Positions 21,001-24,000 of a DNA stretch of 64,000 nt are shown here, piece after piece. A program made the position numbers. Where the stretch lies: the NCBI GenBank assembly GCA_963666365.2, contig CAXXNF010000002.1, positions 1,952,001 through 2,016,000 of the forward strand. Reading direction: 5' to 3'. The stretch is from Syntrophales bacterium (lineage in GTDB: Bacteria > Desulfobacterota > Syntrophia > Syntrophales > UBA2210). How positions within the stretch are numbered: the first letter of the stretch is position 1; each line of letters starts with the position of its first letter.

Positions 21001-24000
21001 CTATCGTAGGAAAGGGTTCGCATGAAAGAGAGGTGACGCAACCCCGGGACCGGACGCCCGCGATGAATCTGAAGATGCTGAGCGATTTCATTGACAAACA
21101 CTTTGACAATGTGGGGGACCATTTTGCTGAGGTCGCCCTGAAAATGCACCGTGGCGAAGAAGAAAAGAGAAACATAAAAGGGTACACCACAAAGACAGAG
21201 GAAGAAACGCTTAAGGAAGAAGGCGTACAGTTTATAAAAATCCCCACACCCAAATTTGACAGTTGATCCGTTCGGGAGTAGAGGAATACATCGCCAGGGG
21301 TTTCGCATGCGACCACCTTTTATTTATGTGCGGCCATGAAAGAACAGCACCATACCATCCTCGATCTGATCGGAAACACGCCCCTTGTGCAGATCAATGC
21401 ATTGAATCCCTATGTACAGGTCAAAATCTATGCAAAACTGGAAGGCGCCAATCCGGGAGGTTCCATAAAAGATCGTACCGCCCTCTATATGATTGAACGG
21501 GCCGAGGAGCGAGGCGTTCTCACAAAAGGCAAGGTCATAATCGAGGCAACCAGCGGCAACACGGGCATCGGACTGGCCATGGTGGCCGCAGCGAAAGGAT
21601 ACCGCCTGATTCTCGCCATGTCGGAGGCGGCAAGTGAGGAACGTAAAAAAATCCTCAGGGCCATGGGCGCCGAGCTTCTCTTCACGCCGGCACATCTGGG
21701 AACCGACGGCGCGATCGAAAAGATCTACGAGATGCTCCGCCGGTTTCCCGATAAATACTTCATGCCCGATCAGTTCAACAGTCCCGACAACGTTATGGCC
21801 CATTATTACGGCACGGCGAAGAAATATGGCGGCAAACGGAAGGAACCGTGACCTCGGTGATTGCCACATTGGGAACATCGGGCACTGCAATGGGACTTGC
21901 CAAAAGGCTCAAGGAATTAAACAGTTCGGTCAGAATCATTGGCGTGGAACCCTATCTCCGGCATAAGATACAGGGACTCAAAAATATGAAGGAGTCCTAT
22001 CGCCCCGGCATCTTTGAAAGAAACCTTCTGGACGAAAAGATACACATTGCCGATGAAGACGCCTTTGAAACGGCAAGAAAACTGGCGAGGACGGAAGGAC
22101 TTCTGGTCGGCATGAGTTCCGGCGCTGCCATGCACGTCGCCCTGGAACAGGCCGAGAAGATGCAGGAAGGGGTGATTGTCGCTATTTTCCCGGACCGCGG
22201 TGATCGTTATCTGAGCACGGAGCTCTTTTCCGACAAAGAAGAAACCTCACTTCAGATATACAACACAATGAATCGGACGAAGGAATCATTCAGACCCATC
22301 AGTCAGAAGCGTGTACTGATGCACTCCTGCGGTCCCTCCGTGCACGATGTTCCCCACATAGGCACCTACAGGCGGTTCATCGTGGCCGATGTGATCATGC
22401 GATATTTGAAACAGAAGGGCTTTCAGGTACTTCATGAAGTCAATATCATCGACATGGCCGACCGGTCAATAAAAGGCGCCGAACAGGCAGGCATCCCCAT
22501 TGAAGGATACACAAAGCAATATATTCAGGCTTTTTTCGATGATGTCGTCACGCTTAATATCAGCAGTGACATACTGTACCCCAAGGCAAGCGAAAATGTG
22601 GACTCGATGATCACCCTGGCCGAACAGCTGGTGGAAAAGGGGTTCGCCTACGAGAAACTGAGGTCCGTATATTTTGATATATCCAGGCTTGACGACTACG
22701 GGCTTCTTTCCAATATCGATCTTGGCCGCGTCCGCCACAGGCACACAATCGACCAGGATGAGTACGAAAAAGACAGCCCCGTTGACTTCACCCTGCTCAA
22801 GCGATCGACGCTGGCGGAGCTGAAAAAAGGCATCTATTGCAAGACGAAGTGGGGGAATGTCCGCCCCAGCTGGCATCTTGAATGCGCGGCCACTGCCCGC
22901 AAATATCTCGCCGATACGTTCGATATATTCGTATCCGGAGCCGATATCATATTCCCCCACTGCGAAAACGTGATGGCCATCGGGAAAGCAGCCACCGGAA
23001 AAATCCCGGCGACATATTGGATGCATGCGGAAATCGTAATGCGCCAAGGAAAGAAAATGTCCCGTTCTCTCGACAACACCTTTACGATCGGCGATCTTAT
23101 CGAAAAAGGGTATTCAGGAAAAGACCTCCGATATTTTCTCCTCAGTTCGCATTACCGGAAACCGCTCAATTTTTCTTTCGGCGCCCTCGACACGTCAAGA
23201 AATACGGTGCGAAGGCTCAATAATTTTATTCAGAAACTTATCCGCGCCGTCCCCGGAAAAGAACAGGCCGAACTGGATCAGCATGTATATGACGTCAGAA
23301 AGGCCTTTTCCGAAGCAATGGACGACGATTTTAACATCTCCGGCGCCCTTGCGGCGATATTCACTTTTGTCAAGACCATCCATTCGCTGCTTTCGGAACA
23401 ACGGCTTTCAAGAAACCAGATCGAGACGGTGATAGAAGTGCTGAAGAAAATCGACGATGCACTGGGCATCATGGATTTTCAGGAATCGACCCTCGAAAAA
23501 GACATTCGGGATCTGCTGAAACAGCGTGAAGGCGCACGAAAAGAGGCACGCTGGGAGGAAGCGGACCGAATTCGCCGGGAGCTGGCGGAAAGAGGGGTCA
23601 GACTTCAGGACACGCCTGAGGGAACCTTCTGGAGCATGGAGTGAACAATCACTGTAATGATGGGGCTGAGGGTTCAATTGAACCGGCCTTTGGTGCATAT
23701 AGGCTTCCCCGAGCTGCCGTAAAAGGCATAATGTGTTTTGGCGGCTGCACGTACCAGGAGAGGAGAAACATATCATGAAGCTTAGCGAGTACTTTGAAAC
23801 GGCGGAAGGCCTCGGCATTCTTTCAACAGCCGATTCATCGGGCAGGGTCAACTCAGCCGTGTACGGAAGGCCCCATGTCATCGATGAAGAAACAGTTGCC
23901 TTCATTATGGCCGAGCGCCTGACCTATTCCAATCTTCAGTCAAATCCCTCCGCCCTCTATCTTTTCAAAGAAGCGGGAGAGCACTACCTGGGGAAAAGAC

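What a model noticed while it worked through the whole genome (the two positions that open the first line are those of the whole stretch)
21336..23644. Cysteine synthase fused to a second CysRS
Beside a canonical cysS (g03280) the genome carries a second cysteinyl-tRNA synthetase whose N-terminus is a complete CysM/CBS-type PLP cysteine synthase domain (g03003+g03004; here split by a 1-nt frameshift). I read it as a bifunctional enzyme that makes cysteine (or a persulfide/thiol analogue) and loads it straight on tRNA-Cys, a direct-pathway analogue of SepRS/SepCysS channelling. A conserved 769-aa synthase-synthetase fusion across Syntrophales, annotated only as 'cysteine--tRNA ligase', has not been described.
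Evidence so far: pfam.tsv: g03004 = PALP (profile 162-295 of 295, aa 2-113) + tRNA-synt_1e (E 9e-81) + DALR_2 + CysS_C; g03003 = the first 171 aa of PALP with the PLP-lysine motif GGSIKDR. tblastn of the 97%-identical intact relative P0001 (769 aa) covers both ORFs in two frames, switch near C2:1973815, one G missing relative to GCGGAAGAA. find_homologous_proteins: 6186 proteins at E<=1e-3 among 8000 scored; every one of the 120 listed carries PF00291 (PALP) with PF01406 (CysRS); most are 760-801 aa, from Syntrophales/Deltaproteobacteria MAGs and from Syntrophus aciditrophicus and S. gentianae, all named just cysteine--tRNA ligase. Paper searches: no mention.
(Added by a program. Inside this text positions count along the whole contig: contig position 1,952,001 is position 1 of the stretch shown here. 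"Call 12" and the like, gene names such as g00115 and contig names such as C1 are that model's own, and its searches are not shown. The text may have been shortened before it was handed on; [...] marks where a part breaks off. The agent that wrote the report below was given it as the finding of a first reader that could run no searches.)

Follow-up and report, generated by a model that had tools for sequence, protein, structure and literature searches.

The report
Cysteine synthase fused to CysRS paralogue
One gene joins the enzyme that makes cysteine to a remodelled second copy of the enzyme that loads cysteine onto its tRNA; the break in the gene here is an assembly error, the fusion is common in syntrophic and sulfate-reducing bacteria, and what the pairing does has apparently never been studied.

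Summary
Window 21336-23644 (+) encodes a CysM-type PLP cysteine synthase joined by about 5 residues to a full-length CysRS-like enzyme. The 1-nt frameshift is an assembly error: contigs of three public runs carry one more G behind 21817, which gives 769 aa without a stop.

The fusion is much wider than Syntrophales. It is in 123 of 150 other genomes sampled in the order and in 160 of 401 in the phylum.

The two halves are unequal:
- The synthase half keeps every catalytic motif everywhere. It is the only cysteine synthase found in 78 of 159 carriers.
- The CysRS half is a separate paralogue lineage. I found no solid case where it is a genome's only CysRS. It is catalytically dead in several orders but keeps its tRNA-binding motifs everywhere.
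- In this order it keeps variant ATP motifs (HIG[T/S], KMSRS) and a rebuilt zinc pocket. Four residues invariant in 93 ordinary CysRS are changed and fixed.

My reading: a cysteine synthase tethered to a tRNA-Cys-binding module that probably still charges tRNA here (0.45). The rival is a pure sensor (0.30).

No paper found in 8 searches. The scan reported this family before on other DNA.

The parts
21336..23644 (+). Whole gene for the CysM-CysRS2 fusion. It is 2309 nt in the window and 2310 nt / 769 aa in the true sequence.
   Evidence: ORFs; families; read-through 769 aa, 742/769 identical to P0001.
21817..21818 (+). Place of the 1-nt assembly deletion. One G is missing between these bases, which splits the gene into ORFs 21336..21851 and 21848..23644.
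   Evidence: table 4: G put in behind 21817 in the spanning contigs of X1, X2 and X3; tblastn frame switch at C2:1973815-1973824.
21336..22234 (+). CysM/CysK-type PLP cysteine synthase half (residues 1-300). The PLP lysine K45 lies at 21468-21470.
   Evidence: PALP; cysKM 361.7 bits > 344.15. Motifs SIKDR, TSGNTG, GT[ST]GT and SSGA are invariant in 116 sequences. Model matches E. coli CysM 2bhs_A with TMt 0.94.
22235..22249 (+). Short linker (residues 301-305).
   Evidence: pLDDT < 50 at residues 300-302. No conserved column in 301-306.
22250..23194 (+). CysRS2 catalytic part (Rossmann fold and CP insertion, residues 306-620). Motifs: HIGT at 22355-22366, FPHCENV at 22952-22972, KMSRS at 23054-23068.
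   Evidence: tRNA-synt_1e 4.7e-80; alignment to 1li5/8qhp; motif counts; 1u0b_B TMt 0.86.
23195..23641 (+). Stem-contact / helical bundle and C-terminal anticodon-binding domain of CysRS2 (residues 621-769).
   Evidence: DALR_2 5.7e-11 and CysS_C 2.1e-8. The motifs HYR, DDDFN and R..AR....W..AD..R..L...G....D are kept in every row printed.

Best explanation
The gene is intact in the organism. It encodes one 769-aa protein.

N-terminal half: a working CysM/CysK-type cysteine synthase (PLP; sulfide plus O-acetylserine or a related activated serine gives free cysteine).

C-terminal half: a CysRS paralogue (CysRS2) that has kept its tRNA-Cys-binding parts in every lineage.

What selection keeps family-wide is therefore the physical tie between cysteine synthesis and tRNA-Cys binding. 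In this order CysRS2 also keeps three things:
- a zinc/thiol pocket, rebuilt (H235C with E238V, T68I/V);
- invariant variant ATP motifs (HIG[T/S/N], KMSRS);
- a very conserved CP insertion.

So I think it most likely still forms Cys-AMP and charges tRNA-Cys with cysteine made next door. That makes it a tethered make-and-load enzyme working beside the ordinary CysRS, perhaps keeping free cysteine low or serving special conditions.

Shown: gene integrity, domain identity, motif states, distribution, paralogy.
Inferred: both activities, tRNA binding, any channelling. Cys235 taking over from Glu238 as zinc ligand is a guess.
For: Integrity:
- G behind 21817 in the spanning contigs of 3 runs; 769 aa with no stop.

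Synthase half:
- All PLP motifs invariant in 116 of 116 sequences and in every fusion read.
- Passes the cysKM cut-off.
- It is the only cysKM-type match in 78 of 159 carriers.
- Orders or families without the fusion have a free CysM 51-54% identical to it.

CysRS2 half in this order:
- TIGR00435 385.8-388.9 bits, above the 340 cut-off.
- E. coli-numbered C28 113/116, W205 115/116, C209 115/116, H234 116/116.
- H and G of HIGH 116/116; K-M-S-R of KMSRS 116/116.
- These same motifs drift freely in other orders, so they are under selection here.
- The CP region is the best conserved part: 77% identity, 48% of columns near-invariant.
- Anticodon-domain motifs are kept.
- Model pLDDT 88, pTM 0.72; matches the CysRS-tRNA complex chain 1u0b_B over 480 columns.

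Support from a related enzyme:
- MshC makes Cys-AMP with only Cys, Cys and His as protein zinc ligands (PMC9736012, passages). So loss of E238 need not kill the chemistry.

Substrate tRNA:
- The genome has one tRNA-Cys (GCA, G1:C72, U73) to share.
Against: - Four positions invariant in 93 of 93 ordinary CysRS representatives are changed and fixed here: T68, H235, E238, K269. T68 corresponds to T83 of MshC, which binds the substrate's alpha-amino group (the mapping is mine). K269 is the second lysine of KMSKS.
- An ordinary CysRS is present in 144 of 151 genomes of the order. It is also present in 5 of 5 tested carriers of KMSRS-type fusions outside it. So charging by the fusion is never needed on present evidence.
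- Related fusions keep the architecture with dead ATP motifs, and in some with the zinc cysteines lost.
- The genome also has a cysE-like/cysK-like pair, so both halves are redundant here.
- pTM 0.72 does not fix the arrangement of the two halves. No distance between active sites could be measured, and there is no biochemistry.
Confidence: 0.45

Rival explanations
1. Pseudo-synthetase sensor. In this order too, the CysRS2 half no longer charges tRNA. It binds tRNA-Cys (and perhaps ATP or cysteine) and switches the attached synthase on or off. This would be enzyme-level control of cysteine supply by demand, like HisZ on HisG or the HisRS-like domain of GCN2.
For: - The only features kept in all fusions are the synthase motifs and the tRNA-binding motifs of CysRS2 (invariant columns R731, D744, G754, D759).
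- Catalytic motifs are lost in many orders.
- I found no solid case where CysRS2 is a genome's only CysRS.
- Four universally invariant active-site residues are replaced here.
- The synthase half is the housekeeping enzyme in about half of carriers, so a regulator attached to it makes sense.
- HisZ is a documented precedent (review PMC9437257, passages).
Against: In this order H and G of HIGH and K-M-S-R are invariant in 116 of 116 sequences, and the zinc ligands are kept. A pure tRNA sensor would not need that. The protein still scores above the CysRS equivalog cut-off. No allosteric effect can be tested here.
Confidence: 0.3
2. Altered-substrate ligase. The rebuilt pocket activates a thiol compound other than plain L-cysteine (persulfide, S-sulfocysteine, selenocysteine or another product of the PLP half), or passes Cys-AMP to an acceptor other than tRNA, as MshC does.
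For: - Pocket changes T68I/V, D71A, H235C and E238V are order-specific and fixed.
- CysM-type enzymes accept nucleophiles other than sulfide (recalled, not tested).
- MshC shows that a CysRS paralogue can change acceptor.
Against: - Anticodon-binding domain and stem-contact motifs are kept, which argues for tRNA.
- MshC model score is only 160.8 against a cut-off of 485.1.
- K73 and K269, the PLP sites modelled for persulfide synthesis in E. coli CysRS, are arginine here.
- No partner genes: neighbourhoods differ across the phylum.
Confidence: 0.1
3. Plain Rosetta-stone fusion. Two ordinary activities are merely co-expressed, with no functional coupling.
For: - Both halves hit their families above cut-off.
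- An independent fusion of CysM to a canonical-motif CysRS exists in a Nanoarchaeota MAG (P0123).
- An adjacent cysM-cysS pair exists in a Patescibacteria MAG. So pairing of the two genes recurs.
Against: The CysRS half is not ordinary and is a separate lineage. Fusions with dead CysRS halves are kept full length across many families, which mere co-expression does not explain.
Confidence: 0.08
4. Cysteine made on the tRNA. CysRS2 holds tRNA-Cys or loads it with a serine derivative, and the PLP half converts it to Cys-tRNA. This would be a one-protein analogue of SepRS/SepCysS.
For: A PLP beta-replacement enzyme is tethered to a tRNA-Cys-binding module. The amino-acid pocket is rebuilt. No SepRS or SepCysS was found in the genome, so such a route would not be redundant with them.
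Against: - The TSGNTG loop, which I recall as binding the free carboxylate of the substrate in CysK/CysM, is invariant.
- The fusion is the only cysteine synthase in 78 of 159 carriers, which need free cysteine.
- Lineages with dead CysRS2 could not load anything.
- The zinc thiolate site is kept.
Confidence: 0.04
5. This copy is a true pseudogene. The frameshift is real in the cell.
For: The window's assembly lacks the G. Depth of the contigs that carry it is only about 4, and they may come from the same sample.
Against: - Three spanning contigs from two samples all have the G.
- There are no other stops or indels over 2.3 kb, and the product is 96% identical to P0001.
Confidence: 0.03

Closest known systems
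Canonical bacterial cysteinyl-tRNA synthetase (E. coli CysS; PDB 1LI5, 1LI7, 1U0B; NCBIfam TIGR00435)
   Same: Full domain order: Rossmann fold, CP, stem-contact fold, helical bundle, C-terminal anticodon domain. Scores above the family cut-off. Kept: C28, W205, C209, H234, the DDDFN motif and the C-terminal motifs. Structure match TMt 0.86.
   Different: - About 33% identical to the genome's own CysRS and a separate lineage.
- HIG[T/S] for HIG[H/N]; KMSRS for KMSKS; T68I/V, H235C, E238V.
- These positions are invariant in 93 of 93 ordinary enzymes, except HIGH position 4.
- Carries an N-terminal PLP enzyme.
- I found no solid case where it is a genome's only CysRS.
CysM / O-acetylserine sulfhydrylase B (E. 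coli 2BHS, Salmonella 2JC3; TIGR01136 cysKM)
   Same: 45% identity, 252 bits, TMt 0.94. PLP lysine, Asn loop, glycine loop and SSGA are all kept. It is the sole cysteine synthase in half of carriers.
   Different: Below the cysM equivalog cut-off (356.4 < 394.2). Carries 465 extra residues of CysRS2. The substrate (O-acetylserine or O-phosphoserine) is not known.
HisZ with HisG (HisRS paralogue as regulatory subunit of the first histidine-pathway enzyme)
   Same: An aaRS paralogue for amino acid X is attached to an enzyme that makes X. The dead-CysRS2 members of this family look like that design. Review passages.
   Different: Here the two are one polypeptide. The partner is the last enzyme of the pathway, not the first. 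In this order the ATP motifs are not lost. No regulation has been shown. No sequence relation (class I against class II).
SepRS / SepCysS (tRNA-dependent cysteine synthesis in methanogens and some bacteria)
   Same: Links cysteine formation by a PLP enzyme to tRNA-Cys (papers PMC5424206, listing only; PMC8762117, passages).
   Different: No homology: SepRS is class II and SepCysS is a fold-type I PLP enzyme (recalled). Neither was found in this genome. Here free cysteine is the likely product.
MshC and CysRS* (the two CysRS paralogues listed in the 2022 review PMC9437257)
   Same: CysRS-derived enzymes with changed active site or role. MshC uses only Cys, Cys and His as zinc ligands, as this clade may.
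   Different: - MshC model score is 160.8 against a cut-off of 485.1.
- CysRS* lacks the anticodon domain and sits with selB*/selC* (PMC5389517, passages).
- This protein keeps the anticodon domain and has no such neighbours.

Membership tests
CysRS (TIGR00435 cysS equivalog) | Whole-protein score above the curated cut-off (340 bits) | tested here: met
   388.2 (window ORF2); 388.9 (genome search); 385.8 (P0001). The genome's own canonical CysRS scores 566.5.
CysRS (TIGR00435 cysS equivalog) | Class I signature motifs HIGH (H-x-G-H/N) and KMSKS | tested here: not met
   HIG[T73/S35/N7/G1] and KMSRS (R in 116 of 116). In 93 ordinary representatives the 4th HIGH position is N70/H23 and the second lysine is K in 93 of 93.
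CysRS (TIGR00435 cysS equivalog) | Zinc/cysteine pocket: C28, C209, H234, E238, W205, T68 (E. coli numbering). The ligand roles of H234 and E238 are recalled. C28/C209 and the MshC equivalents come. | tested here: not met
   C28 113/116, W205 115/116, C209 115/116 and H234 116/116 are kept. E238 is V/T/I in 116 of 116, H235 is C in 115 of 116, and T68 is I/V. All three are invariant in 93 of 93 ordinary CysRS.
CysRS (TIGR00435 cysS equivalog) | Anticodon-binding domain present | tested here: met
   DALR_2 and CysS_C. C-terminal motif kept. Aligned to 1u0b_B over 480 columns.
CysRS (TIGR00435 cysS equivalog) | Charges tRNA-Cys with cysteine | not testable with these tools
   Needs an enzyme assay.
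CysK/CysM cysteine synthase (TIGR01136 subfamily) | Score above cut-off (344.15), and PLP lysine, Asn loop, glycine loop, SSGA | tested here: met
   361.7 bits for intact P0001. The window's two pieces score 212.2 and 120.1. Motifs invariant in 116 of 116.
CysM equivalog (TIGR01138) | Score above 394.2 bits | tested here: not met
   356.4 bits. Closest solved chains are nevertheless CysM (2bhs, 2jc3).
HisZ-like regulatory pseudo-synthetase | Loss of the catalytic motifs while ligand binding is kept | tested here: not met
   Not met in this order, where variant motifs are invariant. Met in other orders of the same fusion family.
HisZ-like regulatory pseudo-synthetase | Allosteric control of the partner enzyme | not testable with these tools
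   Needs kinetics. Complex prediction could not be run because its queue was full.
MshC (TIGR03447) | Score above 485.1 bits | tested here: not met
   160.8 bits.
CysRS* of Mukai et al. (PMC5389517) | No anticodon-binding domain; gene next to selB*/selC* | tested here: not met
   Anticodon domain present. Neighbours are a DUF1178 gene, tRNA-Pro, an unassigned 144-aa ORF and a photolyase.
SepRS/SepCysS system | Presence of sepS and SepCysS homologues | tested here: not met
   No match to TIGR00470. Best TIGR02539 match is 23.7 bits against a cut-off of 365. The genome is 94% complete.

The most novel reading that the evidence does not exclude
The CysRS-derived half is a tRNA-Cys reader bolted onto the cell's cysteine synthase. 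Cysteine production would then be set directly, at enzyme level, by the state of tRNA-Cys: a bacterial, single-protein counterpart of GCN2/HisZ logic. The Syntrophales form would be a living intermediate that still does ATP chemistry.
Probability: 0.3. Interest if true: 0.8.

Novelty: new variant of a known kind. Interest (0 to 1): 0.65.

Why it matters
About 40% of sampled genomes of a major anaerobic phylum (160 of 401) carry this protein. In half of the carriers it is the only cysteine synthase found. Yet databases call it an ordinary tRNA ligase or an ordinary cysteine synthase.

If it charges tRNA, it is a second, direct way of coupling cysteine synthesis to translation, beside SepRS/SepCysS.

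If it senses tRNA, it is a new example of an aaRS paralogue recruited to control amino-acid synthesis.

The family also shows, in living lineages, graded steps from a near-intact synthetase to a dead one. That makes it a natural series for studying how aaRS paralogues change function. Cultured carriers exist (Syntrophus aciditrophicus, S. gentianae, Desulfovibrio ferrophilus), so it is testable.

Tried and rejected
- RNA evidence: no RNA holder listed for the stretch. This says nothing on expression.
- Complex prediction of the two halves (A1 1-300 against 305-769): the job was never accepted, with the queue full at every try. There is no result.
- Gene neighbourhood as a clue: the DUF1178 gene lies upstream in 11 of 11 loci of close relatives. 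In 15 loci across the phylum the neighbours differ, with thymidylate kinase upstream in 4, then DUF3786, HhH-GPD and others. No partner emerged.
- Rfam over the whole window: only a tRNA. No riboswitch or T-box lies before the gene.
- Promoter and terminator scan: counts are no higher than in shuffles.
- Longest-ORF picking failed for 4 of 45 fetched genes, where antisense ORFs were picked. They were re-read correctly.
- Newberry et al. 2002, the E. coli CysRS structure paper, could not be read. The zinc-ligand roles of H234 and E238 are therefore recalled.
- The third CysRS-like gene as CysRS*: rejected, because no selB-like neighbour is present.
- L112, L120 and L138 are tandem cysK/M genes, not fusions.
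- The FastTree tree was rough and joined long branches. It was replaced by an IQ-TREE quick tree on 53 chosen rows. No bootstrap, no AU test and no root.
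Full report
**What is in the window**

Two ORFs on the + strand overlap by four bases: 21336..21851 (171 aa) and 21848..23644 (598 aa).
- Pfam finds the first half of a PALP domain in ORF1. In ORF2 it finds the second half, followed by tRNA-synt_1e, DALR_2 and CysS_C.
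- NCBIfam ranks cysKM/cysK/cysM first for the PALP pieces. It places ORF2 above the cysS equivalog cut-off (388.2 against 340).
- tblastn of the intact relative P0001 (769 aa) covers both ORFs, with a frame switch at C2:1973815-1973824.

**The frameshift is an assembly error**

I laid Logan contigs of four public runs on the gene (X1 and X3 are one sample, X2 and X4 another; two studies).
- The contigs that cover the place with 0-1 other letters all have one G put in behind 21817. These are record 1 of X1, record 9 of X2 and record 23 of X3. X4 does not cover the place.
- Depth is only about 4, and one sample may be the assembly's source. This is good evidence, not proof.
- With that G the frame gives 769 aa without a stop, 742 of 769 identical to P0001.

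**Both halves are what they seem**

- P0001 passes the cysKM subfamily cut-off (361.7 > 344.15) and the cysS cut-off (385.8 > 340). It does not pass the cysM equivalog cut-off (356.4 < 394.2).
- Against solved structures, residues 305-767 align to CysRS chains (8qhp 312 bits, 1li5 257 bits). Residues 7-301 align to E. coli CysM (2bhs, 252 bits).
- An AlphaFold2 model built on 56 fusion sequences has mean pLDDT 88.0 and pTM 0.72. Low confidence is confined to the linker (300-302) and a CP loop (467-480).
- Foldseek matches the C-half to 1u0b_B (TMt 0.86 over 480 columns) and the N-half to 2bhs_A (TMt 0.94). No solved chain among the matches listed covers both halves.

**The genome's own inventory**

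Found:
- a canonical CysRS (566.5 bits; 33.5% identical to the fused one);
- the fused one;
- a third, 421-aa CysRS-like gene without the C-terminal anticodon domain (297.7 bits, below cut-off);
- a cysE-like gene (163.7 bits, below cut-off) directly before a cysK-like gene on C1;
- one tRNA-Cys (GCA, G1:C72, U73) and one tRNA-Sec.

Not found: SepRS or SepCysS (the genome is 94% complete).

So in this organism both halves of the fusion are duplicated by ordinary genes.

**Distribution**

- Order: in a sample of 151 genomes (G000 included), 123 of the 150 others have a match that crosses the domain junction. This is my hand count of the rows. The 27 without lie mostly in families f14, f18 and f24, which carry a free CysM 51-54% identical to the N-half.
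- An ordinary CysRS (E <= 1e-120 with the genome's own) is in 144 of 151 genomes. The 7 without are G056, G078, G092, G096, G110, G122 and G127 (97, 87, 75, 88, 90, 70 and 68% complete). Four of them are carriers, and all four are 87% complete or less.
- Phylum: in a sample of 401 genomes, 160 have a match at E <= 1e-110. Nearly all of the 150 listed rows span about residues 1-767. A few are cut by contig ends, and 12 rows are not listed.
- Of the 159 other carriers, 78 have only one cysKM-type match at E <= 1e-40, that is, the fusion itself. 75 have two and 6 have more.
- Five carriers of well-preserved fusions outside the order all also have an ordinary CysRS (5 of 5).
They include Desulfobacterales, Desulforapulum, Desulfocapsa, Desulfopila, Desulfobulbus, Desulfatibacillum, Caldimicrobium, Desulfovibrionaceae, Desulfocurvus and a Polyangiaceae MAG. 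Also named: S. aciditrophicus, S. gentianae and Desulfovibrio ferrophilus.

**Active sites**

Among 116 full-length homologues, every PLP-enzyme motif is invariant: the lysine in S-I/V-K-D-R, TSGNTG, GT[ST]GT and SSGA.

In the CysRS half, positions are given in E. coli numbering. I anchored it on the 1li5 alignment and on residue numbers quoted in Akaike et al..

| Position | This order's fusions (116 sequences) | 93 ordinary CysRS representatives |
|---|---|---|
| C28 | C 113/116 | C 93/93 |
| W205 | W 115/116 | W 93/93 |
| C209 | C 115/116 | C 91/93 |
| H234 | H 116/116 | H 93/93 |
| HIGH, 4th position | T73 / S35 / N7 / G1 | N70 / H23 |
| H235 | C 115/116 | H 93/93 |
| E238 | V107 / T5 / I4 | E 93/93 |
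| K269 (second K of KMSKS) | R 116/116 | K 93/93 |
| T68 | I or V | T 93/93 |

- The 93 controls are the ordinary CysRS closest to the query, so they are a biased sample.
- In MshC the equivalents of C28, C209 and H234 plus the substrate thiol hold the zinc. The equivalents of T31, T68 and G29 hold the alpha-amino group (PMC9736012, passages; the mapping is mine).
- That E238 is the fourth zinc ligand in E. coli is recalled. The paper could not be read.

**The family is a graded series**

I read about 65 different bacterial fusion genes across the phylum.
- None has H-x-G-H or KMSKS.
- Several families keep HLG[N/L] with FPHHENE and KMSRS.
- Many have lost HIGH and KMSKS but keep the zinc pocket.
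- Some have lost the zinc cysteines as well: families f66, f101 and f117, D. ferrophilus, Desulfocurvus and other Desulfovibrionales.
- The synthase motifs are kept in all.
- In every row printed the stem-contact HYR, the DDDFN motif and the C-terminal anticodon-domain motif are the same as in the canonical CysRS. That call printed 46 and 24 rows, with P0001 and the canonical CysRS in both sets and the dead forms included.
- The pocket changes T68I/V, D71A, H235C and E238V are special to the window's order.
- Within the order the CP insertion is the most conserved part: 77% mean identity, against 73% for the synthase half and 43-50% for the anticodon domains.

**Phylogeny**

I built an IQ-TREE quick tree (LG+G4, SH-aLRT only, unrooted) of 53 rows that I chose from about 135 available.
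- 27 fused CysRS halves and three free-standing relatives (P0138, P0143, P0146) lie on one side of a branch with support 98.
- On the other side are 23 ordinary CysRS. These include the genome's own and the CysRS half of a Nanoarchaeota MAG fusion (P0123) that has canonical motifs.
- A rougher FastTree of 120 rows agrees.

So the bacterial fusions carry a paralogue lineage, and the archaeal fusion arose separately. Two related arrangements turned up: a Patescibacteria MAG has cysM and an ordinary-type cysS as adjacent genes, and a Pseudobdellovibrionaceae MAG has cysM followed by a fusion-type CysRS2 in a broken frame.

**Mechanism**

The asymmetry is the key fact.
- The synthase half is always intact and is often the only cysteine synthase.
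- I found no solid case where the CysRS half is a genome's only CysRS. It is often catalytically dead but always keeps its tRNA-binding motifs.

What selection keeps family-wide is therefore a cysteine synthase tied to a tRNA-Cys-binding module.

In this order the variant ATP motifs are invariant, while the same motifs drift elsewhere. So ATP chemistry is probably still selected here, and I rate retained charging of tRNA-Cys (make-and-load) at 0.45. The replacement of four universally invariant residues keeps the pure sensor reading (HisZ- or GCN2-like) close behind at 0.30. The other readings are in the rivals list.

**Literature and earlier notes**

Eight full-text searches found no paper on a CysK/CysM-CysRS fusion.
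- Passages read in PMC5389517, PMC8762117, PMC2922099, PMC11580382 and PMC9774590 do not mention it.
- The 2022 review PMC9437257 lists only CysRS* and MshC as CysRS paralogues (table and passages).
- Subscription journals are not covered.

The scan itself reported this family at least ten times on other genomes, with similar conclusions. I treated those notes as leads and re-tested the main claims here.

Noticed in passing
G000:C1:1256951-1258162 (L003:1516-2781, - strand): A third CysRS-like gene of 421 aa. It scores 297.7 bits on TIGR00435, below the 340 cut-off. It has no C-terminal anticodon domain. HIGN and KMSKS are kept, but WNIQD replaces WHIEC, so one zinc cysteine is lost. No selB-like neighbour, so it is not the CysRS* arrangement.
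   Followed up: partly
G000:C1:1070670-1072292 (L021): A cysE-like gene (163.7 bits, below the 210.65 cut-off) lies directly before a cysK-like gene that is 43% identical to the fusion's N-half. This is an ordinary-looking second route to cysteine in the same genome.
   Followed up: partly
window 20850-21266 (+): A DUF1178 zinc-ribbon gene (E 2.5e-40) lies 69 nt upstream of the fusion on the same strand. It holds that place in 11 of 11 loci of close relatives, but was not seen among the neighbours scanned in 15 loci across the phylum. A promoter-like site lies before it at 20791-20819.
   Followed up: partly
window 20628-20704 (-): tRNA-Pro (CGG) between the pilC-like gene and the DUF1178 gene.
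   Followed up: no
P0123 (Nanoarchaeota MAG, 768 aa): A separate fusion of CysM to a CysRS with canonical motifs (HIGN, FPHHQNE, KMSKS). It nests among ordinary CysRS in the tree. I did not check whether it is that genome's only CysRS.
   Followed up: partly
P0148 (995 aa), P0175 (960 aa), P0177 (617 aa): Other cysteine-pathway fusions among the representatives. P0148 and P0175 have two PALP stretches plus a serine acetyltransferase (SATase_N and Hexapep). P0177 has a hexapeptide-repeat part before a PALP domain.
   Followed up: no
L160 (Patescibacteria MAG) and L088 (Pseudobdellovibrionaceae MAG): In L160, cysM is followed after 24 nt by an ordinary-type cysS in another frame. In L088, cysM is followed after 72 nt, in the same frame, by a fusion-type CysRS2 with the ORF broken. 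So the pairing also occurs as neighbouring genes.
   Followed up: partly
L082:2384-6445 (G316:C12): My ORF caller gives 1354 aa, with about 570 residues before the CysM half. This may be an early false start or a further N-terminal domain.
   Followed up: no
window 25535-26152 (+): A 205-aa ORF with a weak 2-thiouracil desulfurase (PF04463) match: 20.6 bits, below the 34.7 cut-off.
   Followed up: no
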